A stretch of 64,000 nucleotides of DNA from Pristiophorus japonicus (lineage: Eukaryota), in the NCBI RefSeq assembly GCF_044704955.1, contig NC_091994.1:48670001-48734000 (forward strand). The letters run 5' to 3'. Positions 6,750 through 44,500 of the stretch are shown piece by piece. The translations under genes were made by a program, and so were the position numbers. The notes under the pieces are model-generated. The model was not told the DNA's origin and ran no database searches. It saw only the letters and a list, made by a program, of their open reading frames with translations. Every line of letters starts with the position of its first letter. Position 1 is the stretch's first letter.

Positions 6750-9700
6750 AAAGGCAAGCATGAAAGCTCGGTGCCGCAATGCGAGGAGTATTCTGAACCC
6801 AGGAGAGGGCTCTGAGCTAGTTAGAGTGGGTGAGAGCTCAGATGAACAGGATCCCAAGAAAGAATGCAAAAGGCAGGAGGCAACAGCGCAGAGTAGCACT
6901 GGGATAAGTGAAAATCACAAGGTGATAGGAAGGGACAATATGTATGAATATAAAGGGGCTGCAGGAAGGGTCAAAACTAAAAATCATGGTTTAAAAATTA
7001 GTATTAAAACACACTACCTAAACGCACGCAGTATTCGAAATAAAGTAAATGAGTTGACGGCACAAATCATTACAAATGGGTATGATTTGGTGGCCATTAC
7101 AGAAACGTGGTTGCAGGGAGGCCAAGACTGGGAATTAAACATACAGGGGTATCTGACAATTCAGAAAGATAGACAAGAAGGGAAAGGAGGTGGGGTAGCT
7201 CTGTTAATAAAGGATGATATCAGGGCAGTTGTGAGAGATGATATTGGCTCTAATGAACAAAATGTTGAATCATTATGGGTGGAGATTAGAGATAGCAAGG
7301 GAAAAAAGTCACTGGTGGGCATAGTTTATAGGCCCCCAAATAATAACTTCACGGTGGGGCGGACAATAACCAAGAGAATAATGGAGGCATGTGAAAAAGG
7401 AACGGCAGGTCAAGTCAAATCGCATGGGGTAGCCTTGAGGAGGAATTCATAGAATGCATACGGGATTGTTTCTGAGAACAGTATGTTACAGAACCTACAA
7501 GGGAGCAAGCTATCTTAGATCTGGTCCTGTGTAATGAGACAGGAATAATAAACAATCTCCTAGTAAAAGATCCTCTCGGAATGAGTGATCACAGAATGAT
7601 TGAATTTATAACACAGATTGAGGGTGAGGAAGTAGTGTCTCAAATGAGCGTACTATGCTTAAACAAAGGGGACTAGGGGATGAGGGCAGAGTTGGCTAAA
7701 GTAGACTGGAAACACAGACTAAACGGTGGCATAATTGAGGAACAGTGGAGGACTTTTAAGGAGCTCTTTCATAGTGCTCAACAAAAATATATTCCAGTGA
7801 AAAAGAAGGGCGGTAAGAGAAGAGATAGGCAGCCATGGATAACCAAGGAAATAAAGGAGAGTATCAAATTAAAAACCAAATGCATAGAAGGTGGCCAAGG
7901 TTAGTGGGAAACTAGAAGATTGGGAAAATTTTAAGCGACAGCAAAGAATGACTAAGAAAGCAATAAAGATAGATTACGAAAGTAAACTTGCGCAAAACAT
8001 AAAAACAGATAGTAAAAGCTTTTACCGATATATAAAACGGAAAAGAGTGACTAAAGTAAATGTTGGTCCCTTAGAAGATGTGAAGGGTATTTAATAATGG
8101 GAAATGTGGAAATGGCTGAGATCTTAAACAATTATTTTGCTTCGGTCTTCACAGTGGAAGACACAAAAACCATGCCAAAAATTGCTGGTCATGGGAATGT
8201 GGGAAGGGAGGACCTTGAGATCATCATTATCACGAGGGGGGTAGTGCTAGACAGGATAATGGGACTCAAGGTAGACAAGTCCCCTGGTCCTGATGAAATG
8301 CATCCCAGGGTATTAAAAGAGATGGCGGAAGTTATAGCAGATGCATTCGTTATAATCTACCAAAATTCTCTGGACTCTGGGGAGGTACCATCGGATTGGA
8401 AAGCAGCTAATGTAACGCCTCTGTTTAAAAAAGGGGGCAGACAAAAGGCAGGTAACAATAGGCCGATTAGTTTAACATCTGTAGTGGGGAAAATGCTTGA
8501 AGCTATTATTAAGGAAGAAATAGCGGAACATCGAGATAGGAATAGTGCAATCAAGCAGACGCAACATGGATTCATGAAGGGGAAATCATGTTTAACTAAT
8601 TTACTGGAATTCTTTGAGGATATAACGAGCATGGTGGATAGAGGTGTACCGATGGATGTGGTGTATTTAGATTTCCAAAAGGCATTCGATAAGATGCCAC
8701 ACAAAATGTTACTACAGAAGATAAAGGTACGTGGAGTCAGAGGAAATGTATTAGCATGGATCGAGAATTGGCTGGCTAACAGAAAGCAGAGAGTTGGGAT
8801 AAATGGGTCCTTTTTGGATTGGAAATCGGTGGTTAGTGGTGTGCCACAGAGATCGGTGCTGGGACCACAACTGTTTACAATATACATAAATTACCTGGAA
8901 GAGGGGACAGAGTGTAGTGTAACAAAATTTGCAGATGACACAAAGATTAGTCGGAAAGTGGGTTGTGTAGAGGACACAGAGAGGCTGCAAAGAGATTTAG
9001 ATAGATTAACAAATGGGCTAAGGTTTGGCAGATGGAATACAATGTCGGAAAATGTGAGGTCATCCACCTTGGGAAAAAAAACAGTAAACGGGAATATTAT
9101 TTGAATGGGGAGAAATTACAACATGCTACGGTGCAGAGGGACCTGTGGGTGCATGAATCCCAAAAAGTTAGTTTGCAGGTGCAGCAGGTAATCAGGAAGG
9201 CGAATGGAATGTTGGCCTTCATTGCGAGAGGGATGGAATACAAAAGCAGGTAGGTTCTGCTGCAACTGGAGAGGGTATTTGTGAGGCCGCACTTGGAGTA
9301 CTGCGTGCAGTTTTGGTCACCTTACTTAAGAAAGGGTATACTAGCTTTGGAGGGGGTACAGAGACGATTCACTAGGCTGATTCCAGAGATGAGGGGGTTA
9401 CCTTATGATGATAGATTGAGTAGACTGGGTCTTTACTGGTTGGAGTTCAGAAGGATGAGGGGTGATCTTATAGAAACATTTAAAATAATGAAAGGGATAG
9501 ACAAGATAGAGGCAGAGAGGTTGTTTCCACTGGTCGGGGAGACTAGAACTAGGGGGCACAGCCTCAAAATACGGGGGAGCCAATTTAAAACCGAGTTGAG
9601 AAGGAATTTCTTCTCCCAGAGGGTTGTGAATCTGTGGAAATCTCTGCCCAAGGAAGCAGTTGAGGCTAGCTCATTGAATGTATTCAAATCACAGATAGAT

Positions 9701-9864
9701 AGATTTTTAACCAATAAGGGAATTAAGGGCTATGGGGAGCGGGCGGGTAAGTGGAGCTGAGTCCACGGCCAGATCAGCCATGATGTTGTTGAATGGCGGA
9801 GCAGGCTCGAGGGGCTAGATGGCCTACTCCTGTTCCTAATTCTTATGTTCTTATGTTCTTATGT
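6750..9864 (+). mobile_element. CR1-type LINE with near-complete but frameshifted ORF2 and (TTCTTATG)n tail
   Basis: APE motifs (YLNARS, ITETWL) in 6739-7452; RT 8097-9104 (FADD); C-terminus 9281-9760; octamer-repeat tail about 9840-9864. Confidence 0.93.
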
Positions 9865-9900
9865 AGTTCATATTCAGCGTGTTGCCAGCTCCGTAATAGC
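9865..9900 (-). other. IgNAR J segment, splice donor missing
   Basis: Reads YYGAGNTLNMN (compare VNAR J YYGAGTVLTVN). Flanked by RSS CACAGTA-22bp-TCAAAAAGG. A CR1 tail abuts the position where GT is expected. Confidence 0.88.
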
Positions 9901-9938
9901 CACAGTAAGTTAGCTGTCATTCACCCAGTTCAAAAAGG
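9901..9938 (+). promoter_or_regulatory. J recombination signal (22-bp spacer)
   Basis: Heptamer CACAGTA 9901-9907, spacer 9908-9929, nonamer TCAAAAAGG 9930-9938. Confidence 0.85.
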
Positions 9939-9961
9939 GTCATTGAAGCAAAGATCCGGTA

Positions 9962-12013
9962 ATAAAGAGAAAAGATAGCCATCCGTGGCTAACTAAAGAA
10001 ATAAAGGACGGTATCCAATTTAAAACAAGGGCATACAAAGTGGTCAAAACTAGTGGGAGGACAGAAGACTGGGAAGCTATTAAAAGCCAGCAAAGAACGA
10101 CTAAAAAAAATGATTAAGAAAGGGAAGATAGACTATGAAAGTAAACTAGCACAAAATATAAAAACAGATAGCAAGAGTATCTATAGGTATATAAAAAGAA
10201 AAAGAGTGTCTAAAGTAAATGTTGGTCCCTTAGAGGATGAGACCGGGGAATTAGTAATGGAGAACATGGAGATGGCAGAAACTCTGAACAAATATTTTGT
10301 CTCAGTCTTTATGGGAGAGGACACCAATAATATTCCAACAGCAGATAGTCTAGGTACTATAGAGGGGAAGGAACTTAACACAATCACAATCACTAAGGAG
10401 GTGGTACTCAGTAAGATAATGGGACTAAAGGCAGATAAATCCCCTGGACCTGATGGCTTGCATCCTACGGTCTTAAGAGAAGTAGTGGCAGGGATTGTGG
10501 ATGCATTGGATGTAACTTACCAAAATTCCCTGGATTCTGGGGAGGTCCCAGCAGATTGGAAAATTGCAAATGTAACGCCCCTGTTTAAAAAAGGAGGCAG
10601 ACAAAAAGCAGGAAACTATAGACCAGTTAGCCTAACATCTAAGGTTGGGAAAATGTTGGACTCCATTATTAAAGAAGCAGTAGCAGGACATTTGGAAAAG
10701 CAAAATTCAGTCAGGCAGAGTCAGCATTGATTTATGAAGGGGAAGTCAGTTTTGAAAAATTTGCTGGAGTTTTGTGAGGATGTAATGAACAGGGTGGATA
10801 AAAGGGAACCAGTGGATGTGGTGTATTTTGGACTTCCAGAAGGCATTTGACAAGGTGCCATATAAAAGGTTACTGCACAAGATAAAAGTTCACGGGGTTG
10901 GGAGTAATATATTAGCATGGATAGAGGATTGGCTAAGTAACAGAGAACAGAGAGTCGGGATAAATGGTTAATTCTCTGGTTGGAAAGCAGTAACTAGTGG
11001 GGTTCTGCAGGGATCAGTGCTGGGTCCCCAACTATTTACAATCTATATTAACGACTTGGAAGAAGGGACTGAGTATAATATAGCCAAGTTTGTTGACGAT
11101 ACAAAGATGGGAGGAAAAGCAATGTGTGAGGAGGACACACAAAATCTGCAAAAGGACATAGACAGGCTAAGTGAGTGGGAAAACATTTGGCAAATGGAGT
11201 ATAATGTTGGAAAGTGTGAGGTCATGCACTTTGGCAGAAAAAAATCAAAGAGCAAGTTATTATTTAAATGGAGAAAAATTGCAAAGTGCTGTAGTACTGC
11301 GGGACCTGGAGGTACTTGTGCATGAAACACAAAAGGATAGTATGCAGGTGTAGCAAGTGATCAGGAATGCCAATGGTATCTTGGCCTTTATTGCAAAGAG
11401 GATGGAGTATAAAAGCAGGGAAGTCTTGCTATAGTTATATAAGGTATTGGTGAGGCCACACCTGGAATACTGTGTGCAGTTCTGGTTTCCATATTTACGA
11501 AAGGATATACTTGCTTTGGATGCAGTTCAGAGAAGGTTCACTAGGTTGATTCCGGGGATGAGGCGGTTGACTTATGAGTAAAGGTTGAGTAGGTTGGGCC
11601 CCTACTCATTGGAATTCAGAAGAATGAGAGGTGATCTTATCGAAACATATAAGATTATGAGGGGGCTTGACAAGGTGGATGCTGAGAGGATGTTTCCACT
11701 GATGGGGGTGACTTGAACTAGAGGGCATCATCTTAGAATAAGGGGCCGCCCATTTCAAACTGAGATGAGGAAATATTTCTTCTCTCAGAGGGTTATAAAT
11801 CTGTGGAATTCACAGCCTTAGAGAGCTGAGGAAGCTGGGACATTGAATAAATTTAAGACAGAAATAGAAAGTTTCTTAAACGATAAGAAAATGAGGGGTA
11901 ATGGCGGGGAAGTGAAGCTGAGTTCATGATCAGATCAACCTTGAATGTATTGAATGGCGGAGCAGGCTCGAAGTGCCGTATTGCCTACTCCTGTTCCTAT
12001 TTCTTATGTTCTT
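9962..12013 (+). mobile_element. 5'-truncated CR1 LINE inserted between D2 and J
   Basis: RT fragments 10053-10730 and 11017-11325 (FVDD); TTCTTATGTTCTT tail ending about 12013. Confidence 0.92.
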
Positions 12014-12289
12014 AAAACAAATCTGCTCGAAGGAACTTTCCGATATTTTGGAGTCATTCATACTTTTCAATTTCGGTCAGTTTCTATCCATATAGATATT
12101 TACTATGTGCAGTGCAAAATCCTGTAACATGGAAGAACAAAATCCATTGATTTACCATCAGGGAATGCGGGTAGATTTAAACCAAAGGTTAGATTGGAAT
12201 TAATGCAGACTTTATGCAGTAACAACCTTGAGTAAGCAGCACATTGTTCAGCCACCTTCACGAGTCGGAAACTAGATAACTGTTGGAGA

Positions 12290-12357
12290 GGTTTGTGCTA
12301 TGGGCCGAGTCACTGTGTCACTCTGGCTACACATCACTTCGCACTAGCACAAGAACT
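12290..12357 (-). other. IgNAR D segment (J-proximal, D2) with 12/12 RSS
   Basis: Coding 12318-12329 (TAGCCAGAGTGA). 3' RSS CACAGTG-12-GCACAAACC (12317-12290). 5' RSS CACATCA-12-ACAAGAACT (12330-12357). Confidence 0.85.
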
Positions 12358-12668
12358 CCATTGTTGCAAACATCAGAAATTCCAAAATATTGATTGAAAG
12401 TTGCAGTAATTATGATTCAAATCATTGCCTTTATATTCGGATCCCCTTAGATGTTTATATATCTCAACCATTCATAAGAATCTTCAAAAAATATAATTGT
12501 TCCATTATGAATATGATTTAACATTTATACAAAAATCACGCAAATGAATAGAGAAAAAGCTTTAAGATATCATCCAGTGTCTGACAGAGACAATGTGCAT
12601 TTAACCTTGAGGTTATTAGTCACCGAGATAATAACCTATATTAATGCTGTATTAAGAAGTGTGGGGAC

Positions 12669-12747
12669 AGTTTATGTATTATGGGGATACACAATTCATT
12701 ACTCTGGTGCTGCATGTCACACAGTCACAGAGACCAGTACAAAAAGG
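12669..12747 (-). other. IgNAR D segment (V-proximal, D1) with 12/22 RSS
   Basis: Coding 12707-12719 (TGACATGCAGCAC). 5' RSS CACAGTC-12-ACAAAAAGG (12720-12747). 3' RSS CAGAGTA-22-ACATAAACT (12706-12669), with a non-canonical heptamer. Confidence 0.8.
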
Positions 12748-12934
12748 TCCCCTGTGCATTAATACAAGAGCCTCAGGCCAAGACACATACTGCAATCCAA
12801 ATTCCTGCCTCAATACTTCATGTGAGAATTTTTCTTGTAAGAAAGAATGTTATCCTTCCAAAATACAGTGTCTACTCTTCACGATCAAGTAACAGATAAC
12901 TATTGCCCTTGTTCATGTAACAAAGTGAGCTAAT

Positions 12935-12973
12935 AGTTTGTGATTTGCAGGGACCTTCTCCTCCATTGCTGTG
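12935..12973 (-). promoter_or_regulatory. V recombination signal (23-bp spacer)
   Basis: CACAGCA (12973-12967), 23 bp, TCACAAACT (12943-12935), directly after the V exon. Confidence 0.85.
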
Positions 12974-13245
12974 GGTCCAAGCTCTGCAGTCATACGTGGC
13001 ACTGTCTTCAACTTTCAGGTCATTGATTCGCAGAGAAAATGTCTTTGCTCCCTTGTTGACTGATTCAACATATCGTCCGCCAATCGTGATGCTTTTCCGA
13101 TTTGATGAATCCGTGTTTTTCCGATACCATGCTGTGTCATACAAACCATGGCTGGTGTCAGTTAGGATGCAGTTGATGGTCAGGGATTCGCCTGCCTTTT
13201 TCGTTGCCGTTCTTGGTGTTTGGTCTAATCTTATACTGAAGGCAT
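12974..13245 (-). CDS. IgNAR variable (VNAR) germline V exon, type IV/IIb-like
   Basis: After acceptor TTCAG: (N)[93 protein letters not shown] hallmarks GESLTINC and GGRYVESVN, no CDR2, only the two canonical Cys. Confidence 0.96.
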
Positions 13246-13386
13246 CTGAATGGAGAAAATATATTTAATGCATCGCGTATCTGAAACAATACAAGAGTTT
13301 AAAGGCAGGGCAGTTTCCACAACCGAGACGCAGCCACACAGTTTTATCCAAATTAACATTTAATCTCTTTATTAAGTATCACTTAC

Positions 13387-13429
13387 TCGGTAACCAGGCT
13401 AATAGGACCGAAACCCAGAAAATATTCAT
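13387..13429 (-). CDS. IgNAR leader exon
   Basis: MNIFWVSVLLAWLP followed by phase-1 donor GTAAGT (13386-13381); splices in frame to the V exon. Confidence 0.94.
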
Positions 13430-13518: not shown

Positions 13519-13532
13519 CCTCAAGAGAAAAC

Positions 13533-14856
13533 ATTTCAAAATATATACTTTATTCATATAAAAATTTGCACGATACATTGGAAGGCAGTTCAGTACATTT
13601 GGATGCGGTCAGCAATTCTATACAATACATTTGGATGCTGACGGCAGTTCCGTTCAATACATTTGCTTGCTTTACATTTCAGGGTACAATTCAGTACAAT
13701 CCAGGATACAGTGTAATACAGTCATCAAATTACGCTACATGTGGCACTATACAGTACACGGAATGAGTGAGGGTACAGTTACATTTCTTTACAACATACA
13801 TTACTAAACAGTTGCTGAACTTGCATTATACATGGCACTGCATACGTGTTTTCAGATCATGGTGCTCTATGTATACATAGGTTTACAAGTACAGCCCGAG
13901 GGGAGTTTTATACTGATTCCAGCCCCTGGGTTTACCGTAGTGGAAGGGCCTTAAACTGTGGCTCTTCCCCACCGTGCCTTTGCGGCGACTGCACCAATTT
14001 TTAGTGCATCCCTCAGCGCGTACTCCTGGATCTTGGATTGAGCCAGTCTGCAAAATGCAGACGTGGATATCGCCTTGGTCTGGAAGACCAGCAAATTTCG
14101 GCAAGACCTAAGTGCGTCTTTCACCGAGTTGATGGCCCTCCAGCAGCAGATGATGTCTGTCTCGGTGTGTGTCCCTGGGAACAGTCCATAGAGCACAGAG
14201 TCCTGTGTTACGGAGTTGCTTGCGATGAACCTCGACAGCAACCACTGCATCTCCTTCCAGACCTGCCTTGCAAAGGGGCAGTCCCAAAGGAGATGGATAA
14301 CAGTCTCGTCCGCACCACAGCCAATTCGGGTGCAGAGTGCCATGTCTCTGAAACCCCGGCTGTGCATGAAGGATCTGACGGGTAGGACCCTTCTCACCGC
14401 CAACCAAGCTACGTCTTGGTGCTTGTGTGAAAGTTCTGGCGATGAGACATTCTGCCAAACGATTTTGACAGACTGCTCGGGGAACCGTCCGACAGGATCT
14501 ATCATCGCCTTCTTTTGTAGGGCATCCAGGACCTTGCGTGCCGACCACTGCTTTATGGCCTTGTGGTCAAAAGTGTTTTTCTTGAAAAACTTTTCCACGA
14601 AGGACAGGTGCTGAGGCATGGTCCAACTGCTCGGAGTGTCCCGCGGCAGCCTGGCCAGACCCATCCTTCGCAACACCGGGGACAGATAGAATCTCAGCAC
14701 GTACTGACACTTGGCAATTGCGTATGAAGGGTCTATGCACAGCTTGATGCAGCCACACACAAAGGAGGCCATCAGGATGAGGGCCACGTTCAGAACATCC
14801 TTTCCCCCCTTGTCCAGAGATTTGTACATCGTGTCTCTGCAGACATAGTCCATTTT
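13533..14856 (-). mobile_element. Tx1/L1-like LINE 3' fragment
   Basis: 300-aa ORF 13951-14853 resembles an ORF2 C-terminus (C..GC...ETVIHLLWDC zinc-binding motif); 3' UTR ends TGAATAAAGTATATATTTTGAAA near 13535-13556. Confidence 0.85.
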
Positions 14857-15146
14857 ACATGGGCTTATTTACATGGGGCGGAGGAGAGACCAATAGCAGT
14901 GAGTATAGCTCACGGGCTGTGATGGGCTGCATTGTGTCCCCTCTCTCCATCGTCACAATGGTGGCACCTGCACCGATTAACATGAAGAGATCTGTAGTGA
15001 TCGAGAGCACATGCTGCATGGTGCACGGTAACCGTGTTTGATTTGTTTGCATCTGCACTGATTGTGTTTCCTTACTTTCCTACTTTAATAATTTGCAATA
15101 CTTTAATGCTATATGAATAATCATATCCACCGTTACCCATTCTGGA

Positions 15147-16110
15147 TTGAGTGTAACGTAGCCAAGTTTTCTGACGATACAAAGATACAAAGATGGGAGG
15201 AAAAGCAATGTGTGAGCAGGGCACAAAAAATCTGCAAAAGGACATAGACAGGCTAAGTGAGCGGGTAAAAATTTGGCAGATGGATTATAATGTTGGAAAG
15301 TGTGAGGTTATGCACTTTGGCAGAAAAAAAATAAAGGGCAAGTTATTATTTAAATGGAGAAAAATTGCAAAGGGCTGCAGTACAGAGGGACCTGGGGGTA
15401 CTTGTGCATGAAACACAAAAGGTTAGTATGCAGGTACAGCATGTGTTCAGGAAGGTCAATGGAATCTTGGCCTTTATTGCAAAGGGGATGGAATATAAAA
15501 GCAAGGATGTCTTGCTACAGTTATCCAGGGTATTGTTGAGGCCACACATGGAATACTGCGTGCAGTTTTGGTTTCCATACTTAAGAAAGGATATACTTGC
15601 TTTGGAGGCAGTTCAGAGAAGGTTCACTAGGTAGATTCCGGGGATGAGGGGGTTGACTTATGAGGAACGGTTGACGAGGTTGGGCCTCTACTCATTGGCA
15701 TTCAGAAGAATGAGAGGTGATCTTATCGAAATGTATATGCTTATGAGGGGGCTTGACAAGGTGGATACAGAGAGGATGTTTCCACTGATAGGGGAGACTA
15801 GAACTAGAAAGCATAATCTTAGAATAAGGGGCCGCCCATTTAAAACTGAGATGAGGAGGAATTGCTTCTCTCAGAGGGTTGTAACTCTGTGGAATTCGTT
15901 GCCTCAGAGAGCTGTGGAGGTTGGGCCATTAAATACATTTAAGACAGAGATAGACAGTTTCTTAACAGATAAGGGATTAAGCAGTTTTGGGGAGCGGGCG
16001 GGGAAGTGGACCTGTGTCCATGATCGGATCTGCCATGATCTTATTAAATGGCGGAGCAGGCTCGAGGGGCGGAATGGCCTACTCCTGCTCCTTTTTTTTA
16101 TGTTCTTATG
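15147..16110 (+). mobile_element. CR1 LINE 3' fragment
   Basis: RT C-terminal peptides (RPHMEYCVQFW, RMRGDLIE) and TTCTTATG tail. Confidence 0.9.
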
Positions 16111-17420: not shown

Positions 17421-18013
17421 TAAATATTTCTAAATATTCGGTTCATACCATGAAGAGCTGTATATTTAATATTCTCACTGCACAAGTGAATTTTATAATC
17501 ACTCAAGCTTGGTGTTATCTGTGAATTTAGTTACGTCGCATTGACACTTTAGCTGCCTAACATTATAAATGTAATTAATTCAACCTCTATGTACCAGCGA
17601 CACATCCAATGCGAACATGGACCCCTGCTGGTTGATAGGGGCTTGTCCATCCGCCTTAGCACCTTACAAGTAATGGGGCAGATGCCAGGCCGCTCCTCCA
17701 GCAGCCCAAAGCCGGTAACAGCCTTTATCTGGTCTAGAGATGACCAGAGTTGACACCACAGAACACAAGCAGCCAGTTACAGTAGCTCCGACCGAAACAA
17801 CAGAAGGCAAGATGAGGCAAAAAGGGAAGCTTATTTCAGATATCCAAAGCAAAATATTGCAAAAAACCTAGAGGAGTGTAGCAAGTGTGGGGTGAAATTA
17901 AAAAGGAAATTAGGAAAGCAAAGATAGGCCAAGAAAAATATTGGCAAGTAACATCACGGAAAACCTAAATATGTTTGAAAATACATAAATAGTAAGAGTA
18001 TATGCATAAATAC

Positions 18014-18374
18014 TGTTAGATCTCTTAATTTCCAATGAAATACGAACTCCGATGGTAGTTTTAACTTTTTAAATCTTTCCAGAGAGCAACAAACTTCTTG
18101 GCTTCAAGCCAGGTCTTTGTTCTTACTGAGACACATGGTCAAAATTGCTGTATTTTATACCTGGATCAATTTACAGAAAAGAACTCACCTTCTTTGACCT
18201 TATTGGCTCAATTGAAAGTCTTTTAACGTTTTATTGGATCGCTACCCAAGGTCCGAAAATGTCAAGTTGATTGATGAGTTAATGTAACATGCTGAGCAGC
18301 ATGTAGTAGCTTTGACTTGGGGGTCTGTGAATTTTCAAAGCCTGTCTAAATGAGCCTGTTTGAATACTCTATCA
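18014..18374 (-). repeat. ERV-2 3' LTR
   Basis: Direct repeat of 22696-23055; TG...CA termini. Confidence 0.95.
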
Positions 18375-18649
18375 ATCCCCCCTTTGATTCTTTCACAAAC
18401 TGAATCATAAAACTTCAGGTATCACTGGTTAAACATTCTACAAAATAATTTCATACATGTTAATAGAGTTTCCTTCCAAAATTTGTTGATGTGTTTCACC
18501 ACATGTCCGGACTAGTAGCTTCCACACAAATTTACACCAACCCAAGTTCCATCATGGCCACAATGGAAGTCTGGGTTTAATAGGTTAATTAACCTTATTC
18601 CAATTTAATCCAAATCAATATCTTAGTTCAACCAGTAAATAACCTTTCC

Positions 18650-19993
18650 TTAAGCATAACATATCCCTGTGCCATGTACAAATGGTCTGCTGGGACCTGC
18701 AAGGTGTCTCACCTGTGGGACAGCAGCTACAGCTGCCTGGTCGCAACAACATTTAATCAACATAAACAAACAATATAAAAGTAAAACAATTACAACAAAT
18801 AGAATTAAACCTTCCACCAATGAAGTTCCTATTGAACCTAGCCATTCAGTGGCTCCACTCCACAAAGTGAATGATGGGGGTTGCTGAAGTTTTTCTACCT
18901 CCTTTTGGATATGTTCCGCTAAGTGGGTAATTTCTTCGGAGCTATCTGGGATATATGTGCAACACTCAGTTCCGAGTAGGGCGCAAGTACCTCCCTTTTC
19001 AGCCAGGATGTAATCAAGGGCCAGTCTATTCTGTAGGGCTACTGTGCAGATTGCTACCATTTCTGCATTGATTTTAACTAGGGCCTCTGAGGTATCATTG
19101 GCTACTCGTTTCACAACGGATGCCATGTTAATGGATTCCCTTGCGGTCCCATACCCAGGGATCAGAATGGCAAAGAACCTCTCTGTTTCTGTGATAGCTC
19201 TCTTAGGACGGTGTAAATGTTCCGACAGTGACTTTATATGATACATATAAGGCACAATGTAGGCTAAATAGCAGGACCCCATCCAATTCTGGGGCAGCCA
19301 AGGGTAGGCCTTGTGGCCACACACCCAATAGGTGCTATTATATGCAATGAATGTTAGCTGTTTCTTTGTCAGCAACACTCCGGGGCCTGTCCAGGCTTTT
19401 CCATCTGTTTTATTCAGAATCCCCGTTACGTTAAAAATTCCCACATCGGCCCAGTTTGGACGGTTCCGTGGCTTGATTATATTATAATTCCGGGAGCAGT
19501 TACTATACCCCATATTTTGGCCTCCTTTGATGTTTCTAATCAGACAGACCGATTCCCCCGGTCTTCCTATTCCCGTTGTATTAGTGATAACAAAAAATGG
19601 GGGCCGTTTGGAATTATTGTACCACGGTTGGTATCCCCCTTCAAAGGTAGTCAGATTGTAACCTGCTGACTTCCATTTACGTGCCCAGTTTTCCATATTC
19701 TGAAACGCATTGCCTGTTTTATTTTGATTAATTATCCACTCAGCCATTTCCGAGATATTCAAGGGAACTGGCCTCAAGGGAATCCCTCCCTTTGAGTGAA
19801 TAGGAATATGCGCACACACCCAACAACTAGAAATGTTACCTTGTTTGGCATAAATGTATGACATATATAAAAAGGTACTTACATGTAATTCCCTTGCTAC
19901 CCTACTATTTCCCTTTGGTGCAGAAGGTCGGCTAGTAAGAAGTAGGCCTATGCCTAGAATACCTACAATCAATAATACAGTACATTTATACAT
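18650..19993 (-). CDS. env: ERV-2 envelope (gamma-type), open ORF of 447 aa
   Basis: Signal peptide, CWVC, furin site RPKR, ISD LQNRLALDYILAEKGGTC, CX6CC (CALLGTECC), TM anchor. Confidence 0.93.
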   Translation of the reverse strand: MYKCTVLLIVGILGIGLLLTSRPSAPKGNSRVARELHVSTFLYMSYIYAKQGNISSCWVCAHIPIHSKGGIPLRPVPLNISEMAEWIINQNKTGNAFQNMENWARKWKSAGYNLTTFEGGYQPWYNNSKRPPFFVITNTTGIGRPGESVCLIRNIKGGQNMGYSNCSRNYNIIKPRNRPNWADVGIFNVTGILNKTDGKAWTGPGVLLTKKQLTFIAYNSTYWVCGHKAYPWLPQNWMGSCYLAYIVPYMYHIKSLSEHLHRPKRAITETERFFAILIPGYGTARESINMASVVKRVANDTSEALVKINAEMVAICTVALQNRLALDYILAEKGGTCALLGTECCTYIPDSSEEITHLAEHIQKEVEKLQQPPSFTLWSGATEWLGSIGTSLVEGLILFVVIVLLLYCLFMLIKCCCDQAAVAAVPQVRHLAGPSRPFVHGTGICYA

Positions 19994-20017
19994 TTTCGCA
20001 AAAAGTAATTGTCCTTA

Positions 20018-20778
20018 TTAGATTTCAGCTTCAGTTACGGGTGCTCGTTTAACGTGTGAAGCGTGGATCCAGGCTTTCTTTCCTTGGACTTTAACAGCTG
20101 CCTGGGTGGTCAATAACACTTGATAAGGTCCCTCCCACTTGGCACCCAAAGGTTCTTTATGCAACTTTTTCACATAGACCCAGACTCCCGGGATGATGTC
20201 GTGTCCTCCTTCGGGTGGATTACCCCAAGCTGCCGATACCTGTCTGGAAACAGAACTAATAGCATTGGTTAAGTTCTGACAGTATGATAACAAAGTGTCA
20301 CTCATTAAGTGAACATCAGCTTTCCTTAAATCGATAGTTCCCGGCAGCGACATGGGTCTTCCTGTTATAATTTCAAATGGGCTTAGACCTGTAGTTCTGT
20401 TCGGGGTTGCCCTAATGCTACATAGCACTATTGGTAGTGCCTGGGGCCATGGTGTTCGTTCAATTCTTCTTTCTTCAAAGTTCTAATTGACCATGTCACC
20501 CGACCATCCTCGAAATGCAACGATGAATCTATTTGGATTAGAACGTCCATTCCCAAAAGGGGTTGATCTACTGGGCCTATCCAGACCAGTGTGGTTAGTT
20601 CATGTGGACCCAGCCCGAAAAGTACCGGTGTTGTCCTTTTAATTTTATGGCCTCCAACTCCATAGGCTGTACGTGCCCTACCATCCAACGGCAAAAAGTC
20701 TCCATATTGTAGGGGTAAGCATGTTAATTCCGCCCCTGTGTCTAAAAGACAGTCCACATCCTTATCGCCCACCCTCAC
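20018..20778 (-). pseudogene. pol: ERV-2 pol remnant: protease joined by deletion to the integrase C-terminus
   Basis: LLDTGA protease (20428-20778); junction about 20452 into PWPQALPIVLCSIRATP...WEGPYQVLL; no RT, RNase H or IN core. Confidence 0.9.
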
Positions 20779-20840
20779 AGTTATATATAGCCCATCTCCC
20801 CTTTGTTATATTAGTGTGAGGAGGGGGGCCAGGGTGGGCT

Positions 20841-22436
20841 CTAATCGTTTTTTGCTATCCCAAGTAACTCCTTCTGTTGTTGTATTGTCAGTCGCTTAAA
20901 TGCTTCTATGAGGTCGTTATCTTGTGACAAGCCTGGCTTGTTGGTTGAATTGTATCCCTGGCTGCGTCCTCTTCCCCAGCCATGACCTTTCTGTTTTGCC
21001 CTGCACGTCTTGGCCCAGTGACATTCTTTCCCACAATAATGACATTTTCCGGGTAATTTTCCTAATGACTGCTTATCGGAATCCTGGGATTTCCATCCCA
21101 TAGCCTGTACAGCTCGGACTTTAGCTCCCATATCCCGATCTAATTGGTTACATCGATCCACCAATGCTGCAAAGGTAGTTCCTCTACCTTCCCAGTCCGG
21201 TAACACTACCTTAAGCATTTTGGACAGTTCTGGCTTTAGACCTGCCACGAAAGCTGCTTTCAGGGGTCCAAACGCTTGTTCATCCATTTCCTCATCCGTA
21301 TTATTCATACCCAAATGTTCTAGCCACGTGCATCTAAACCGCTAGTCATACTCCAGGACCTCCTCTGTTCCTTTCTGTTGGCAGGCTGCAATTTTTCCCC
21401 AGTCTGTCTTAGCTGGACTGAAGGCTTGCAGCCAATGTTTAATCGCCTCCCATCCTGCGTCTAATTCTTGCTCATTCTGCCCCAAAGCTTCATCTATCTT
21501 GTCGTGCAATTTTCTGTGTTTTTGGCACCATTATGGTCAAAATTTGCACTCCGTCCCAGGGATGAAGTTGATATATATTTCTTAAGCGGTCCAATTGGTC
21601 CCACGTTTTTACTCCCCCTTTCTTTGGATTGGGCAATTCCTTGGACATTTATCAATTTTCTCTGGGTCTGCTGGATCATGAACTAAGTATTCTTCATACA
21701 CCCTTCTCTTTGTTTTTTTGGTTCCGCCCTCATCCGCAGTCTCTTCTGATTTGACTACAACTCGTCTTTTTTTAAACGGGGCAAAGCGTACCCCTAATTC
21801 TTCATCATCCTCCGACACTGTATTGTCGGAGGATTCAGAAACCGTATCTATTCCTCGGTCGTGTCTTCGGGTTTGCGCTTTTAATTTATCCAAACATGGG
21901 TACCCTGGGAATTGATCAATACATTTTCCTTTTCCTATTACTGTCTCTTGACCTAATGATTTTTTCCATTCTTTAATTTCACCTTTAAGATCTTTAACTT
22001 CCGCTTCCAGCTTTTCAAGTTCAAGCTTTTTCTATTGCAGCTGTGCACAAACTGCTTGCAATTGATCCTTTGTACTGGTCAGTTCTCGATCATGTTGGGA
22101 ATGCATTATAATTTCATTCCGGTTTCGAATCTGGCCCATAACCGCTAGGGACCACCTAGTTCGCTCTTTATTTTTCATACGGGTCATTTTTCCCCAGACC
22201 CTTTTAATCTCGTCCAAGGACCATTGTCCTTTGGAGGTTCCGTACTTTTGTTCGATCTTAATACAGGTTTTAGATAAGTTGAATTGTTGCTCTATGTATT
22301 CTTTCAACTGTTCGAGAATTAAATCTAGCGAAACTTGAGATGGTGCCTGCCCACCTTTAACAGTTGTAGGCAATTCTTTGTTCTTGTCTCCTGCTGCCAT
22401 TTCTTTACTAAGTTCTTTACTGGGGTCTCGAGTCAT
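20841..22436 (-). pseudogene. gag: ERV-2 gag, disrupted
   Basis: Fragmented ORFs; capsid-like AFVAGLKPEL; CCHC knuckle CHYCGKECHWAKTC; ends in TAG. Confidence 0.85.
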
Positions 22437-22695
22437 AGGCCTGCTAGCCGAGCAATAGGTTGGTGATTAATTAACTAACACACCGCCGAAGTTTAGACGT
22501 CTATGGGACCTCAAGCCAACTACCAACCGGAGGGTTCGCAAACCGGAGGCTTTCGGAATTGCATAGAAGGAGAGGCGAATTTAGACTTTTGACCGAGGAC
22601 TTTTTTTTAAAAAGAGGAGTCCTTATCTCAAAATGTAGGTCTGATGTCTAAAATTCAGTTTCTTTCCTCAGCGATCCTGTTCGCAGCGCCAACAT

Positions 22696-23055
22696 TGTTA
22701 AATCTCTTAATTTCCAATGAAATACAAACTCCGATGGTAGTTTTAACTTTTTAATCTTTCCAGAGAGCAACAAACTTCTTGGCTTCAAGCCAGGTCTTTG
22801 TTCTTACTGAGACACGTGGTCAAAATGGCTGTACTTTATACCTGGATCAATTTACAGAAAAGAACTCACCTTCTTTGGCCTTATTGGCTCAATTGAAAGT
22901 CTTTTAACGTTTTATTGGCTCGCTACCCAAGGTCCGAAAATGTCAAGTTGATTGATGAGTTAATGCAACATGCTGAACTGCATGTAGTAGCTTCGACTTG
23001 GGGGTCTGTGAATTTTCAAAGCCTGTCTAAATGAGCCTGTTTGAATACTCTATCA
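22696..23055 (-). repeat. ERV-2 5' LTR
   Basis: Direct repeat of 18014-18374; adjacent to PBS. Confidence 0.95.
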
Positions 23056-38849: not shown

Positions 38850-39797
38850 GCATACTCTCTGTTCTGTGAGTAAAACGGATACAGGCATAGTGCCTCTCCA
38901 GTGAAAGGCTTCGGTGGCCAAACAAGGTGAGCCTTTGCTCACAAGAGGTTTCTTCACTGTTGAATCGCAGATGTAATCTGTTGTCCACAGCTGAGGTACT
39001 GCATCTACAAGACTCGGCATTTAAAAGTTAAAGGTATTTTTTTTATAACCATTTCTTTCTCAGCTCGCCAGCAGAAGAGAACAGGTTCTGGAAAAAAAAC
39101 CTCGAGACAGCCCGGGGAAGGTTTCAGTAGGTAAGGGAGCGCTAGTCGATCGAAAAGGGTTCCAGGTTCTTATGTGATAAGATTTTTATTGTTTTTAATT
39201 CGGAAGGGGTTCTTATGTGATAAGACTATTAAAAAAAAAGAAAAAAAGAAAGCGCTAGTCGATCGAAGGTTCTTATGTGATAAGATTTTTATTGTTTTTA
39301 ATTCGGAAGGGGTTCTTATGTGATAAGACTATAAAAAAAAAGAGCGCAATCGATCAAAGAGTTTGGGTACGGAACCTTAAGTTTTATCAGTTTTTATTAG
39401 GATAAGTTAAGGACTCGGTCTGTAGTGGCGTACAACGCAGACTGAGAATTTGTTTAGAGGTTATGATTTGTGTACTCACGGGAATATTGTTTGTTGTCCT
39501 TGTATTACTGTTGTGTGCAATACCTTTGTGACTCATTGCCATTAGAGAAATGGGAAGAGTCACTAGGGAAAGTTGTGATTCGAAAAAAAAAAACACAAGG
39601 ATTGATTAGGAAAAGAAACAGTAACTGATTGATCAACTACGATTGGTTCGTGCCAACATATCTCACACACCCAGACTGAGCCCGAATTAAGAGCCTTTTC
39701 AGGCCACGTAACGGCCAGGAGAAGTGGGCGTAGAGAACTCGGTTGGCCGAAAGGATTGTGAGATCAGAAACTGTGGAAAAATCTTAAATCATCCAGA

Positions 39798-41540
39798 ATG
39801 GGGGCTGGAGCAAGTAAACCACCACCAAAAGGGACCCCACCCCATTTTATGCTCCAGAATTGTGGTCAGTCTTCAATTGACCACCTAAGAGAATGGGTAA
39901 AATGGACTAAGGGTGAAAACAGGCCATTTCCACCCGATGGTTCATTCAATTTAGAGAGAATAACCTGTCTAGAAGAATGCCTTATAGACAGAGACCCAGG
40001 TAGAAGAGGGAAAAAAAAAGTGAATTGGTCAGCGTTTGGAGATTGGAAAAGGGAAGCTGAGGAACGACACGAGAAGAGCCTAAGAGTTAGCAAGCAGTGT
40101 ACTAGAGGGAGAAAGCAGGGGGATGAACGGGTAGAGCAGGTGAATCGCCCTCGACATAACAAACACCCATCCGTTATGGTTGCTAAAGAGACAAAGGCAC
40201 ACTCACCTAGGGCTCCTGAGGGTTGGGATAAGGATGAGGATGAGGACCGGGATGAGGATTGGACTCCCTACAGCCATCGACCACCGCCGTATGTTCCATC
40301 CCCGGGGGGTGCTCCAGGCCAAGGAGGAGACGATCCTCGGGCCGGAGTACAGGGAAACGGGGTAATACCCGCTCCCAACAATACAGGTGCGGCTGCAGGA
40401 AATATAAGTCAGTCACAAGGGAATCAATACCGTGACGGCCCTGCAGGGGGCACACGAAGTCATACCCGTGGACCAGAGCCCGTTGCCCTGGAGCCATCAT
40501 CATCTGCATACCCAGTAAGACTTTTTCCCAGTCCACTCTCTGGGGGGGCTCCGGTCCCTATTTATCGACCATGGTCACCAAGTGAATTAAGAATAATTGT
40601 GGAAGGATTGGCAGACCCCAAAACCAATATTGAAAAGGCCATAGACCAGTTAAAAGTAATCATCTTGTGCCACGAACCCAGTATATTAGATGGTCAAATC
40701 TTACTGAAAGCATGGTTAAAGGACACAAAATTTGCCGAACTTGAGATAAAATTCAAAGATTTTAAAACCCATCGAGAGGCTCCGGATGCAGATCCCAGCA
40801 CGAAGCCAGGAGAGGGGTTCTGGGGAAGATGTTGGGAAGCCTTACATTCGGTGTTCCCGAGGAAAACGAATTGGTCCAAAATTATGGAAACTACACAAAG
40901 AAAGGAGGAGGATGTTGAGGATTATGTAGAAAGAGTGCGAGAGATCATGAACCAATGTTCAGGCATGAAAATGGAGGAGGTAGAAGCTCCTATGATCAGC
41001 GCCGTGGTAAACGGGCTACGGCCCGAACTCAGAGATCCCTTTAAACTAGTTTGTCTCGGATGGCGACAGGAATCGCTATCCAAGGTTGTATCTATGTTAA
41101 AGGACATACAAGAGCGAAATAGAGAATCTAGAAGCAAGGTCACCATGTTTGTAGGACAAGCAGCTCCAATGACACCCACCCCGGTGACACCGTCCTACGG
41201 CCCGCCCCAGGGTAGAGGAAGAGGGCGAGCCAGAGGAGGATATTACAGGGGAAGAGGGAGAGGAGGTGCAGGGCAGGAACAATATGATACCTGTCACAAT
41301 TGTGGACAGATTGGACACTGGGCTAGAACTTGCCGGGCAAAACAGCAACAACCAAATCATGATTGGACTCAACAGGCAGGTAATAGAGCACACCCTCCCC
41401 CTTCAGAACCCAACCCGTATGCGACCCAAGTCCAGGTACATGCTAGACCTCAGACTAATTTCTCTGTGCAAGATCCATTTGGATCACAGAATCAAAAGCA
41501 ATTCGGCCAACCACCAAATTGCCCGTATAATGATCAATGA
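39798..41540 (+). CDS. gag: ERV-1 Gag, intact, 580 aa
   Basis: MGAGAS myristoylation signal, PPPY late domain, capsid (YRPWSPSEL), CHNCGQIGHWARTC knuckle. Confidence 0.96.
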   Translation: MGAGASKPPPKGTPPHFMLQNCGQSSIDHLREWVKWTKGENRPFPPDGSFNLERITCLEECLIDRDPGRRGKKKVNWSAFGDWKREAEERHEKSLRVSKQCTRGRKQGDERVEQVNRPRHNKHPSVMVAKETKAHSPRAPEGWDKDEDEDRDEDWTPYSHRPPPYVPSPGGAPGQGGDDPRAGVQGNGVIPAPNNTGAAAGNISQSQGNQYRDGPAGGTRSHTRGPEPVALEPSSSAYPVRLFPSPLSGGAPVPIYRPWSPSELRIIVEGLADPKTNIEKAIDQLKVIILCHEPSILDGQILLKAWLKDTKFAELEIKFKDFKTHREAPDADPSTKPGEGFWGRCWEALHSVFPRKTNWSKIMETTQRKEEDVEDYVERVREIMNQCSGMKMEEVEAPMISAVVNGLRPELRDPFKLVCLGWRQESLSKVVSMLKDIQERNRESRSKVTMFVGQAAPMTPTPVTPSYGPPQGRGRGRARGGYYRGRGRGGAGQEQYDTCHNCGQIGHWARTCRAKQQQPNHDWTQQAGNRAHPPPSEPNPYATQVQVHARPQTNFSVQDPFGSQNQKQFGQPPNCPYNDQ

Positions 41541-44500
41541 CGCCCAATCCCAGACCCGAGTGCTGCGAACAAACAGCTACCCGTCGTTTCGTTAAATGCC
41601 ATAGGAGAACCTGAAGTAAAAATACGAATACAAGGAAAGGATGTCCCATTCCTAGTGGATACTGGTGCCACCTATTCGGTCCTTTCAAGGGAGGATACGA
41701 GGGGAATTCCCACTTCCACTAATCAAACCTCAGTGAGTGGACTATCTGGACACGCACAGCAAATGTTTTTCTCCAACCCTATCAATGTACAAATAGAGGA
41801 TTACGAAGATAGTCATTCATTCCTACTGTCTAAGGAGGTTCCAGTGAATCTGTGTGGACGTGACCTGTTATGTAAAATGAATGCCACGATCCTCTGTTCC
41901 CCAGCTGGTCTGGAGGTTCGAGTCCCCATAGATAAATGTGGCGCATATCCACTACTTCAACCCACAACTCCCATTTTGTATGCCTGGGAAAATTTGGACC
42001 CCACACTAAGCAAAACCCTATCCTATTTGGTTGGTTCATATTGGTGTGTAACAAGGTTAATCACAGACTACCTCAAATCTCAAACCTTGGGCAAGTGGTA
42101 CGAAACATTACACTGCACAGCATATTGTGACAAAACGGGATCAGACGCTACAGCACAAATCTTTTATCAACCATTCCTGCACCAGAAACATCAATTGATG
42201 ATCGAAAAAATCTTTATCGGACCCGAAGGGATAGCGGCAGGGGTTGAATTATCCTCCCACAGTCAGAGCTTGTTTAGGGTTAAAGGGAGCATTCCACACT
42301 GCACCCTTGCGGTTGCAGGCACGTATAAACCCCAGGATTTAGGACGAATGGTTAAAAGAATGCAAGGATCCCCAGTACAAGAGGAATGGCACACACGTAA
42401 TGGAACTTTGGGGCAACATGAAAGGGGGGGAGGCTATTCTGTCAAGTTGAATGGGAAAATATACTTCGATGCTGTCTTAGAAGAAAGGATGCTCTCAGCC
42501 ACTAGCTTCCCAGTACGACAAAGCACAGCAGAGCTTCTTGCTAAAGTTCCAGAACAACTATGGTCTACACACGCTAATGAAGTAGGAAGGATGCTCACCG
42601 CACAACCCTATAAGGTAGCGATCAATTCAACCGCCCCGCTCCCCAAGAAGCCTCAATACCCCTTGTCCCCAGCCGCAGAACAAGGTATTGAGCCAGTCAT
42701 TAAGTCCCTGCTGGCCCAGGGAGTAATCGTTCCAACTAGAAGTCCATGTAACACACCGATCTTTCCGGTGCAGAAGCCCAATAGTGACAAATGGAGATTT
42801 GTCCAAGACCTACGAGCCGTGAATCATTTGGTATTCCCAACTTATCCAGTGGTACCCAACCCGGCAATTATACTTGCCAGTATTCCGGCATCCTCAACGT
42901 ATTACACAGTAGTTGATCTGTGTTCAGCATTTTTCTCAATACCCATTCACCCAGAGTCTCAATTCCTGTTTGCCTTCACGTATAAAGGACACCAATATAC
43001 GTGGACAAGACTCCCGCAGGGATTTACCGAGAGCCCTACCATATTCTCACAGTGCCTAAAGAGGGATCTGGAAGATGTAATTTTACCAGCAGGTTCTACA
43101 CTTGTGCAGTATGTTGACCACTTATTGCTCGCCTCACCCTCCAAATTGGCCTGCGAAACGGACTCCCTTGTGTTATTAAAAGCTCTGGCCTCGAAAGGAC
43201 ACAAGGTGTCAAAGGCAAAGTTACAATTTGTCTCAGAAAAGGTTCGGTATCTAGGGCACGAATTGGTCAGAGATACGAGACAATTGACACAAGACCGAGT
43301 AAAAGCAATCTGCTCTGCCCCACTACCAGTAACCAAGAGAGAAATGAAACACCTCCTCGGCATGACAGGATACTGCCGACAATGGGTTACGAGTTATTCC
43401 GAGATTGTTAGACCACTGTTAGACATGTCCATGCCCGCACTACCAGAGAAGTTGATTTGGAATGAGGTATCCCGGAATGCTTTTCAGAACCTTAAACAGT
43501 CCCTCACTTCAGCACCCGCCTTGGGATTACCAGATTACACTAAGCTATTCAACTTATTTGTGCATCACAAGTCGGGTTTTGCACAATCTGTTTTGACTCA
43601 GTTACATGGGGACAGGCAGCGACCGGTAGCGTATTTCAGTACCTAACTAGACCCAGTGGCACGCGGACTACCAGGATGTCTTCCTTCGTTGGCAGCAGCT
43701 TATTATGCTATGCAACAGGCTCAGACAATCAAAAATGCAGAACAAGTGGAAAATCTCCTGCGAGCCATTCAATGCCCTTTGAAACTTGCCATTATCAAAT
43801 GCCAAGCACATACAGGCCAGTCGAATGAGGTGGCACTTGGGAATGCCAGAGCTGATAATGCAGCTAAGTCAGCAGCTCTGTCGAAAGGGGGGATGCAGGT
43901 GTCATTGTTCCCACTAAGGAAAAATAATTGCTCAGACCCGCCACCCACTATTAATGACGTGCTGGCCTTTCAGACACAGGCCAGTACGGAGGAGGTGGTG
44001 ACCTGGACGAAGGATCAATGTTATAAAAATCCAGAAGGAATATGGGTTCACCATGACGGCCGCGTGGTGGCCCCTAGATCCTTACTTCCATGGATTGCCC
44101 GATGTGTTCATACATTCACACATGCAGGCAAAGGGGGATTGGCAGATTATATTTTAGCAACTTGGTATGCACCAGGTATTTCGGCAATTGCAAAACAAAT
44201 CTGTGAAAATTGTGTTACCTGTCAGACAATGAATCCGGGTAAGACGGAAAAAGTAGAATCTGCCTCCCACCCAAATCCAGTCGGGCCTTTTGTACATTTA
44301 CAAATGGATTTTATTGAATTACCTATGTGTATGGGATTCAAGTATGTATTAGTTATTGTAGATGTGTTCTCTAGATGGATTGAAGCCTTTCCATGTAAAA
44401 AGGCCGATGCCACTACTGTTGCTAAATGTTTGTTAAAAGAAATTGTACCGCGCTTCGGAATCCCTGCTAAGCTTTCCAGTGATAACGGGTCACATTTCAC

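What the first reader, a model, noticed from the sequence alone, without database searches (positions are those of the whole stretch)
9865..13429. Germline IgNAR cluster with only two D segments
Seen: L-V(23)-(12)D1(22)-(12)D2(12)-(22)J, fully consistent with the 12/23 rule. Without the CR1, the D2-J gap is about 300 bp, like D1-D2, whereas V-D1 is about 190 bp. Known: classical nurse shark IgNAR clusters have three D segments, while the two-D 12/22 + 12/12 layout is typical of shark IgM clusters. Inference: a distinct two-D IgNAR architecture, or loss of one D by deletion. A NAR-TCR cassette is a less likely alternative given the IgNAR-like leader and J.
Basis: partly seen in the sequence, partly recalled or inferred. 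Interest (0 to 1): 0.75.

Follow-up and report, generated by a model that had tools for sequence, protein, structure and literature searches.

The report
Dead two-D shark nanobody gene fragment
This is the broken front half of a shark single-chain antibody (IgNAR) gene with two diversity segments instead of the textbook three; the shark's one intact, unjoined IgNAR gene has the same two, so its antibodies would likely be built with three DNA joins and shorter binding loops.

Summary
The layout is real: minus-strand L-V(23)-(12)D1(22)-(12)D2(12)-(22)J, with no third D. It is not a private deletion: 4 of 4 unjoined copies in this genome that keep V through J are collinear with two D positions, and the empty site of the 2-kb retroelement is about 8 bp. 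One copy (L001) is complete, with C1-C5, secretory and membrane ends. NAR-TCR is excluded: this genome's NAR-TCR cassettes lie elsewhere, have one D and are 34-38% identical. Whether two D is ancestral, an old deletion or an old germline D-D join could not be settled, because no three-D cluster was available. The terminal D resembles the single NAR-TCR D. Reviews give three or 'up to three' D; the same signal layout would follow from the known germline D1-D2 fusion. The scan noted two-D IgNAR before, in another shark and a skate.

The parts
14860..15186 (-). Upstream promoter region with octamer-like ATGTAAAT (14874-14867), cut off from the gene by a LINE
   Evidence: 80% to the L001 promoter flank, continuous with the L005 flank at 86%; sequence
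13530..14859 (-). 5'-truncated LINE (zf-RVT end; Tx1/L1-like label is recalled) inserted between the octamer and the TATA-like box
   Evidence: Pfam zf-RVT E 1.3e-9; absent at this site in L001, L005, L006, L007
13387..13429 (-). IgNAR leader exon, MNIFWVSVLLAWLP, GT donor intact
   Evidence: matches leaders of L001, L005, L007
12974..13245 (-). VNAR V exon, open, two canonical Cys, WYRK, no extra Cys (type IV-like)
   Evidence: best PDB match shark V-NAR 4hgk E 2.3e-38; tree
12935..12973 (-). V RSS, 23 spacer (CACAGCA / TCACAAACT)
12720..12747 (-). D1 5' RSS, 12 spacer (heptamer CACAGTC, last base differs from paralogues)
12707..12719 (-). D1, 13 bp
12669..12706 (-). D1 3' RSS, 22 spacer, heptamer CAGAGTA: invariant CAC broken, likely inactive
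   Evidence: alignment with L001 and L006, which have CACAGTA
12330..12357 (-). D2 5' RSS, 12 spacer, weak heptamer CACATCA shared with L001 and L006
12318..12329 (-). D2, 12 bp; the terminal 12/12 D, resembling the single NAR-TCR D cassette
12290..12317 (-). D2 3' RSS, 12 spacer (CACAGTG / GCACAAACC)
9966..12013 (+).
   Evidence: empty site in L001, L002, L003, L005; 92-94% to many genome copies
9901..9938 (-). J RSS, 22 spacer here (23 in paralogues)
9866..9900 (-). J remnant YGAGNTLNMN: 9-bp in-frame deletion, no splice donor
7015..9865 (+). Second CR1-like LINE whose 3' tail abuts J; all IgNAR sequence 3' of J is missing (left end approximate)
   Evidence: RVT_1 E 1.5e-22; 98-99% to two other genome copies over 368 bp; no unique IgNAR 3' homology in 50 kb

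Best explanation
The window holds the 5' half of an IgNAR gene with two D segments, broken by three retroelements and a damaged recombination signal and lacking constant exons, so it is likely a pseudogene; the two-D layout is shared by every unjoined copy found in this genome, including the one intact gene. Shown: layout, lesions, paralogues, missing C region. Inferred: in the intact gene (L001) RAG would join V23-12D1, D1 22-12D2 and D2 12-23J, three joins instead of four, giving somewhat shorter CDR3 loops on a V without extra cysteines. Inferred: the window copy arose by DNA-level duplication (at least 10 kb of shared upstream flank), is sister to the pre-joined gene 145 kb away, worked for a time and died fairly recently. 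For the origin of two D I commit, weakly, to an old family state built by adding one 12/22 D to a NAR-TCR-like V-D-J unit (about 0.45), ahead of old deletion (0.3) and old germline D-D join (0.2).
For: Collinear V-D1-D2-J in 4 of 4 unjoined copies that keep V through J (window, L001, L002, L003; 79-85% identity); L004 is cut after D2; L005, L006 and L007 are partly or fully pre-joined and keep spacers that fit two D or are uninformative. L001 has six signals, a J donor, C1-C5, a secretory tail and a membrane exon; its C1 matches IgNAR PDB 4q97, E 6.7e-43. Inventory: 8 IgNAR-type V (58% or more), 5 C1, 5 C4 in the genome searches, none near the window copy. Lesions. Shared upstream flank to window 29,208 and no unique 3' homology. 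Sister to L005, 98/93. Codons changed only on the window branch: 5 synonymous, 2 not; on L005: 0 and 7 (small numbers). The LINE at J is 98-99% identical to other copies. Both D have single-D length, 11-13 bp, against 13 (NAR-TCR), 14 (IgW), 17 (IgM). The D2 cassette without heptamers and nonamers matches the NAR-TCR D cassette (0 of 5000 shuffles) better than IgW D2 (79 of 5000); the J-RSS spacer matches NAR-TCR J (2 of 2000).
Against: No three-D cluster sequence could be obtained, so the direction of change is untested. V-D1 is short (187-189 bp) against 310-335 bp for the other spacers measured and 407 bp for IgM V-D1, which fits a deletion scar. Germline joining is common in this genome (L005, L006, L007; 3 of 3 IgM loci where V and J were both read), which fits an old D-D join. 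The source of D1 is unresolved: best spacer matches are 13-21 of 2000 among 10-11 comparisons each. NAR-TCR D also matches IgW D2 (4 of 5000), so the terminal D is an ancient shared unit and not NAR-specific. No expression data. Searches score only the best candidates and the assembly may be incomplete, so a further cluster could be missed. D1's 3' heptamer is deleted in L002-L004, so two fully signalled D are seen only in L001.
Confidence: 0.8

Rival explanations
1. Old deletion: a three-D ancestor lost one D unit in the V-D1 interval before the copies in this genome diverged.
For: V-D1 is 187-189 bp, the shortest spacer measured (others 310-407 bp). Three D are reported for nurse and bamboo shark (PMC4622739, PMC8692893, passages).
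Against: No D remnant or scar in the spacer; no similarity between the IgNAR spacers themselves (163, 288 and 206 of 300 shuffles reach the score); the V-D1 length in three-D clusters was not available.
Confidence: 0.3
2. Old germline RAG join: D1 here is a trimmed D1-D2 fusion, as in nurse shark type III and bamboo shark IgNAR2/5/6, fixed in the ancestor of all copies.
For: Such a join would leave exactly 12/22 plus 12/12 (inference). It is reported in print. Germline joins are frequent in this genome.
Against: D1 is 11-13 bp, no longer than single D segments. A D2-D3 fusion is unlikely because the D2 cassette aligns with the single NAR-TCR D.
Confidence: 0.2
3. Private loss of D3 in this copy, for example at the retroelement insertion or under it.
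For: The copy is decayed and a 2-kb element sits where a third D would be.
Against: The empty site is about 8 bp in L001, L002, L003, L005, and D2-J is 310 bp and colinear in L001; no back-to-back signals in the element.
Confidence: 0.01
4. A NAR-TCR cassette.
For: No Ig C exon follows, as in NAR-TCR cassettes; D2 and the J signal resemble NAR-TCR.
Against: The V has WYRK and no a-b loop Cys; 34-38% identity to 6 of 6 NAR-TCR V sampled against 58-83% to IgNAR paralogues; NAR-TCR cassettes here are V22-12D12-23J followed by a supporting V-delta (2 of 2 extended); no second V in the window or the 40 kb beyond it.
Confidence: 0.02
5. The window copy still works, by V-D2-J joining and trans-splicing or inter-cluster use, or as a gene-conversion donor for the intact V.
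For: Leader, intron, V frame, V-RSS and both D2 signals are intact; V changes are mostly synonymous. One inter-locus rearrangement among 58 clones is reported for nurse shark IgM (PMC2435157, passage).
Against: Promoter split by 1.3 kb, no J donor, no C exons, different contig from the intact gene.
Confidence: 0.05

Closest known systems
Nurse shark type I/II IgNAR and bamboo shark IgNAR1 clusters (V-D1-D2-D3-J-C1..C5; PMC4622739, PMC8692893, PMC4279169, passages)
   Same: VNAR-type V, leader, J motif, cluster organisation; C1-C5, Sec and TM in the intact paralogue L001
   Different: Two D, three joins; the window copy has no C region and is broken
Nurse shark type III IgNAR (germline D1-D2 fusion) and bamboo shark IgNAR2/5/6 (pre-joined D)
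   Same: Three rearrangements; the signal layout would be the same (inferred; the figures were not visible)
   Different: D1 has single-D length; no extra Cys or CDR1 Trp in V; here it is the layout of the only unjoined intact cluster, not a side cluster
Shark IgM and IgW clusters (V-D1-D2-J)
   Same: 12/22-23 plus 12/12 signal layout, seen here in an IgW cluster and, partly joined, in an IgM cluster
   Different: Different V family; long spacers not detectably homologous
NAR-TCR V-D-J cassette (PMC1845163, passages)
   Same: NAR-type V; terminal 12/12 D cassette and J-RSS spacer similar
   Different: One D, a-b loop Cys, no WYRK Trp, supporting V-delta, TCR locus on another chromosome
Type IV (IIb) VNAR, e.g. 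spiny dogfish PDB 4HGK
   Same: No non-canonical Cys in V; 73% identity to the window V
   Different: Its germline D number was not available

Membership tests
IgNAR cluster | VNAR-type V domain | tested here: met
   The 30 best PDB matches are all VNAR-sized shark domains, best E 2.3e-38; groups with IgNAR paralogues
IgNAR cluster | One L-V, D segments and one J with 12/23-compatible signals | tested here: met
   Geometry met; D1 3' heptamer broken in the window copy, intact in L001
IgNAR cluster | Three D segments (textbook; one review says 'up to three') | tested here: not met
   Two D positions in 4 of 4 unjoined V-to-J copies
IgNAR cluster | J spliced to C1-C5 with Sec/TM ends in the same cluster | tested here: not met
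   Window copy: no donor, no C exon in 50 kb. Met in L001. The window copy is therefore filed as an IgNAR-derived pseudogene fragment
IgNAR cluster | Somatic rearrangement, expression, light-chain-free homodimer | not testable with these tools
   No RNA holder listed
NAR-TCR cassette | Cys in the a-b loop and no Trp in WYRK | tested here: not met
   Window V has WYRK and no extra Cys; the C23 cassettes have the Cys and lack the Trp (criteria from PMC1845163)
NAR-TCR cassette | Followed by a supporting TCR-delta V with CDR1 Cys | tested here: not met
   None by motif scan of the window and 40 kb beyond; present after 2 of 2 C23 cassettes extended
Germline D-D joined IgNAR (type III-like) | One D is a composite of two D segments | tested here: inconclusive
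   D1 11-13 bp, single-D length; no three-D reference to compare flanks
Germline D-D joined IgNAR (type III-like) | CDR1 Cys and Trp of type III | tested here: not met
   CDR1 region [11 protein letters not shown]
IgM/IgW two-D cluster | 12/22-23 plus 12/12 signal layout | tested here: met
IgM/IgW two-D cluster | VH-type V and spacers homologous to IgM/IgW | tested here: not met
   V is VNAR; 0 of 12 IgW spacer pairs and 1 of 6 IgM pairs (3 of 300 shuffles, non-matching positions) stand out

The most novel reading that the evidence does not exclude
Two D is the older IgNAR design: NAR V-D-J (one D, as in NAR-TCR) gained a 12/22 D to give the two-D IgNAR seen here, and the textbook three-D cluster is a later duplication in the lineage of nurse and bamboo sharks. 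This shark then runs its whole IgNAR system on one three-join gene plus a graded pre-joined set (VDD-J, VD-DJ, VDDJ).
Probability: 0.35. Interest if true: 0.62.

Novelty: new variant of a known kind. Interest (0 to 1): 0.4.

Why it matters
Reviews explain the long, variable CDR3 of shark nanobodies by three D segments and four joins, a rule drawn in the papers seen from two related sharks. A shark whose only unjoined intact IgNAR gene has two D shows the rule is not general. It predicts shorter loops, matters for choosing species for VNAR libraries, and makes the order of D gain or loss testable by genome alignment. The window copy itself is only a dead witness to the layout.

Tried and rejected
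Expression: no RNA holder listed for the L001 V-J stretch; this is no evidence either way. Three-D reference: metagenome scan found no VNAR locus among 390 pattern hits; protein searches gave 8 VNARs and 1 gene model, without germline D information; the one supplement held for PMC8692893 had no RSS or D text, and its Figure 1B could not be seen. Not held: PMC24375, PMC4874517, PMC1458790 and a skate IgNAR paper; these and their supplements could hold D counts that bear on novelty. Spacer homology: of 21 pairs among IgNAR, NAR-TCR and IgM spacers only one reached 3 of 300 shuffles; 0 of 12 with IgW; blastn of the L001 5' region against two IgW regions gave no hit. Reading D2 as a 1-bp D behind a 23 spacer was rejected (paralogues keep the 12-spacer signal and vary in those bases). 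CACCAGA as D1's 3' heptamer was rejected (25-bp spacer; the alignment places the heptamer at CAGAGTA). An RNA-mediated origin was rejected (intron and 10 kb or more of upstream flank kept). A promoterless fragment was rejected: the promoter lies beyond the LINE. Look-up of earlier findings by sequence gave nothing. Paper searches that found no description of an unfused two-D IgNAR cluster: (open-access library only).

Full report
OBSERVATION. The window is G000:C18:48,670,001-48,734,000 of a 5.9-Gb genome. On the minus strand lie a leader (13429-13387), an intron, an open V exon (13245-12974), a 23-spacer RSS, D1 (13 bp) between a 12 and a 22 signal, D2 (12 bp) between two 12 signals, and a J behind a 22-spacer signal. 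Signal-to-signal gaps are 187, 311 and 303 bp once the LINE at 12013-9966 is left out. RSS-like sites exceed an order-1 null (0 of 500). A relaxed scan for back-to-back signals finds only the two D positions and nothing in the LINE.

IDENTITY. The V matches shark VNAR structures first (4hgk, E 2.3e-38). It has WYRK and no extra cysteine. In a tree of 23 rows it is sister to L005, 145 kb away (98/93), among IgNAR V; six NAR-TCR V form their own clade at 34-38% identity. Those cassettes lie on C23, read V22-12D12-23J and, in 2 of 2 extended, are followed by a supporting V-delta with a CDR1 cysteine, meeting the criteria in PMC1845163 (passages). The window gene is IgNAR-derived, not NAR-TCR.

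THE WINDOW COPY IS BROKEN. (a) A 1.33-kb LINE end (zf-RVT) sits between the octamer-like site and the TATA-like box; the upstream promoter resumes at 14860. (b) D1's 3' heptamer is CAGAGTA where L001 and L006 have CACAGTA; that the first three bases are essential is established knowledge, recalled. (c) A 2.05-kb LINE lies between D2 and J. (d) J has lost 9 bp and 1 bp of its signal spacer, and ends before the splice donor at the tail of a second LINE that is 98-99% identical to two other copies over 368 bp, so likely young. (e) No C exon is found in the 9.9 kb of window and 40 kb beyond; genome searches place C1 and C4 exons elsewhere; no unique 3' IgNAR homology remains, while upstream flank is shared out to window 29,208. 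Codons changed only on the window branch are 5 synonymous and 2 non-synonymous, which suggests, on small numbers, that it worked until fairly recently. The labels CR1 and Tx1/L1 are recalled; no repeat library was run.

TWO D IS THE FAMILY LAYOUT. A DNA search gave 11 matches at 9 places, counting the window; the 8 others were fetched. L001, L002 and L003 align with the window from V to the LINE and resume 8-10 bp later at the J signal, so 4 of 4 unjoined copies that keep V through J have two D positions. L004 stops after D2. L002-L004 are decayed: no leader, D1 3' heptamer deleted. L008 is a 120-bp relic. L001 is complete: spacers 189, 314, 310 bp, six signals, J donor, C1-C5, secretory tail, membrane exon; its C1 matches IgNAR 4q97. 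Three further genes are pre-joined: L005 VDD-J with only C4-C5, L006 VD-DJ with C1-C5, L007 VDDJ in frame with C1-C5. V, C1 and C4 searches showed no further cluster, apart from a lone C1-like exon on C11; they score only the best candidates and the assembly may be incomplete.

MECHANISM. Inferred from the 12/23 rule: L001 would join V-D1, D1-D2 and D2-J, three joins rather than four, in any order as shown for nurse shark IgM (PMC2435157, passages), and would give shorter CDR3 on average. Neither its V nor its stop-free D frames (YGY, MDI, WIY; VWN, YGI) carry an extra cysteine, so the product would be type IV-like. The window copy could at most join V to D2 to J and could not splice to a constant exon.

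ORIGIN OF TWO D. Not settled; no three-D sequence was obtained. For an old family state: both D have single-D length; the terminal D cassette matches the single NAR-TCR D (0 of 5000 shuffles; IgW D2 79 of 5000; NAR-TCR against IgW 4 of 5000) and the J-signal spacer matches NAR-TCR J (2 of 2000); IgW and IgM here use the same signal plan. For deletion: the short V-D1 spacer. For an old D-D join: frequent germline joining here and precedent in print. The long spacers show no homology to each other or to IgM, IgW or NAR-TCR. The source of D1 is unresolved (best 13-21 of 2000 among 10-11 comparisons each). My odds: 0.45, 0.3, 0.2, with the rest for a missed cluster.

WHAT IS KNOWN. Three D per cluster: PMC4622739, PMC4279169, PMC12907318 (passages) and bamboo shark, 4 complete clusters with three D, pre-joined D in three of them (PMC8692893, passages and one supplement). 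'Up to three': PMC5192425 (passages), which also lists VD-J, VD-DJ and VDJ germline joins for IgM. Nurse shark type III has a D1-D2 fusion and three joins. PMC11641339 (first quarter of the text), PMC12227049, PMC3457774 and PMC6795676 (passages) gave no further D counts. Nine searches of the open-access library listed no description of an unfused two-D IgNAR; four primary papers were not held. Earlier AI notes of this scan report two-D IgNAR in another shark and in a skate, and three D in another genome; I could not check them and use them only as leads.

VERDICT. Observation confirmed; interpretation partly supported. A dead fragment that records a real, genome-wide two-D IgNAR layout: a new variant of a known kind, interest 0.4.

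Noticed in passing
L006:1076-1790 (G000:C2090:648,080-648,790, +): IgNAR gene pre-joined as VD-DJ: V fused to D1 with an intact 22 signal, D2 fused to J behind a 12 signal, open frames, a Cys codon at the start of DJ, C1-C5 present. One light-chain-like join would complete it.
   Followed up: partly
L007 (G000:C23:64,674,750-64,675,300, -): Fully germline-joined, in-frame IgNAR VDDJ (CDR3 region RAYCTDWIIKDENYGAGT) with leader, J donor and C1-C5 on the main Ig/TCR chromosome: a candidate fixed-specificity IgNAR.
   Followed up: partly
L005 (G000:C18:48,828,020-48,836,550, +): Sister gene facing away from the window copy, VDD-J joined, lacking C1-C3 but keeping C4, C5 and a membrane exon; V changes on its branch are 0 synonymous and 7 non-synonymous.
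   Followed up: partly
window 12707-12719 and 12318-12329 against L001: D2 differs far more between copies (5 of 12 identical) than the spacers around it (84-90%); D1 7 of 10 aligned with a length change. Possible diversifying selection on D segments.
   Followed up: partly
L019-L024, L026, L028 (G000:C23:10.4-11.1 Mb): NAR-TCR cassettes with one D (V22-12D12-23J) and a supporting V-delta about 6.4-6.7 kb on, which carries one or two extra 23-spacer signals behind it.
   Followed up: partly
L030-L037 (G000:C23): 3 of 3 IgM-type clusters where V and J were both read are partly pre-joined (two V-DDJ, one V-D-DJ); a fourth shows a 12 signal directly on a DJ.
   Followed up: no
L053-L056 (G000:C13:186,992,900-187,004,750): Two-D IgW cluster on C13, away from the main Ig chromosome, with about 10.9 kb between V and D1.
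   Followed up: no
L013:3750-4037 (G000:C11:26,646,764-26,647,042, -): Lone IgNAR C1-like exon (69%), with no V or J found in the 20 kb fetched.
   Followed up: partly
window 39762-46519 (+) and 18650-20014 (-): Endogenous retrovirus frames: gag, protease, RT, integrase and env matches in consecutive frames separated by stops, and a second env-like frame inside an insertion (about 18,013-23,055) in the shared upstream flank. Observed only.
   Followed up: no
L012 (G000:C18:48,639,901-48,640,119, +): Papain-family (cathepsin-like, CGSCWAF) exon about 40 kb downstream of the J remnant; label recalled.
   Followed up: no
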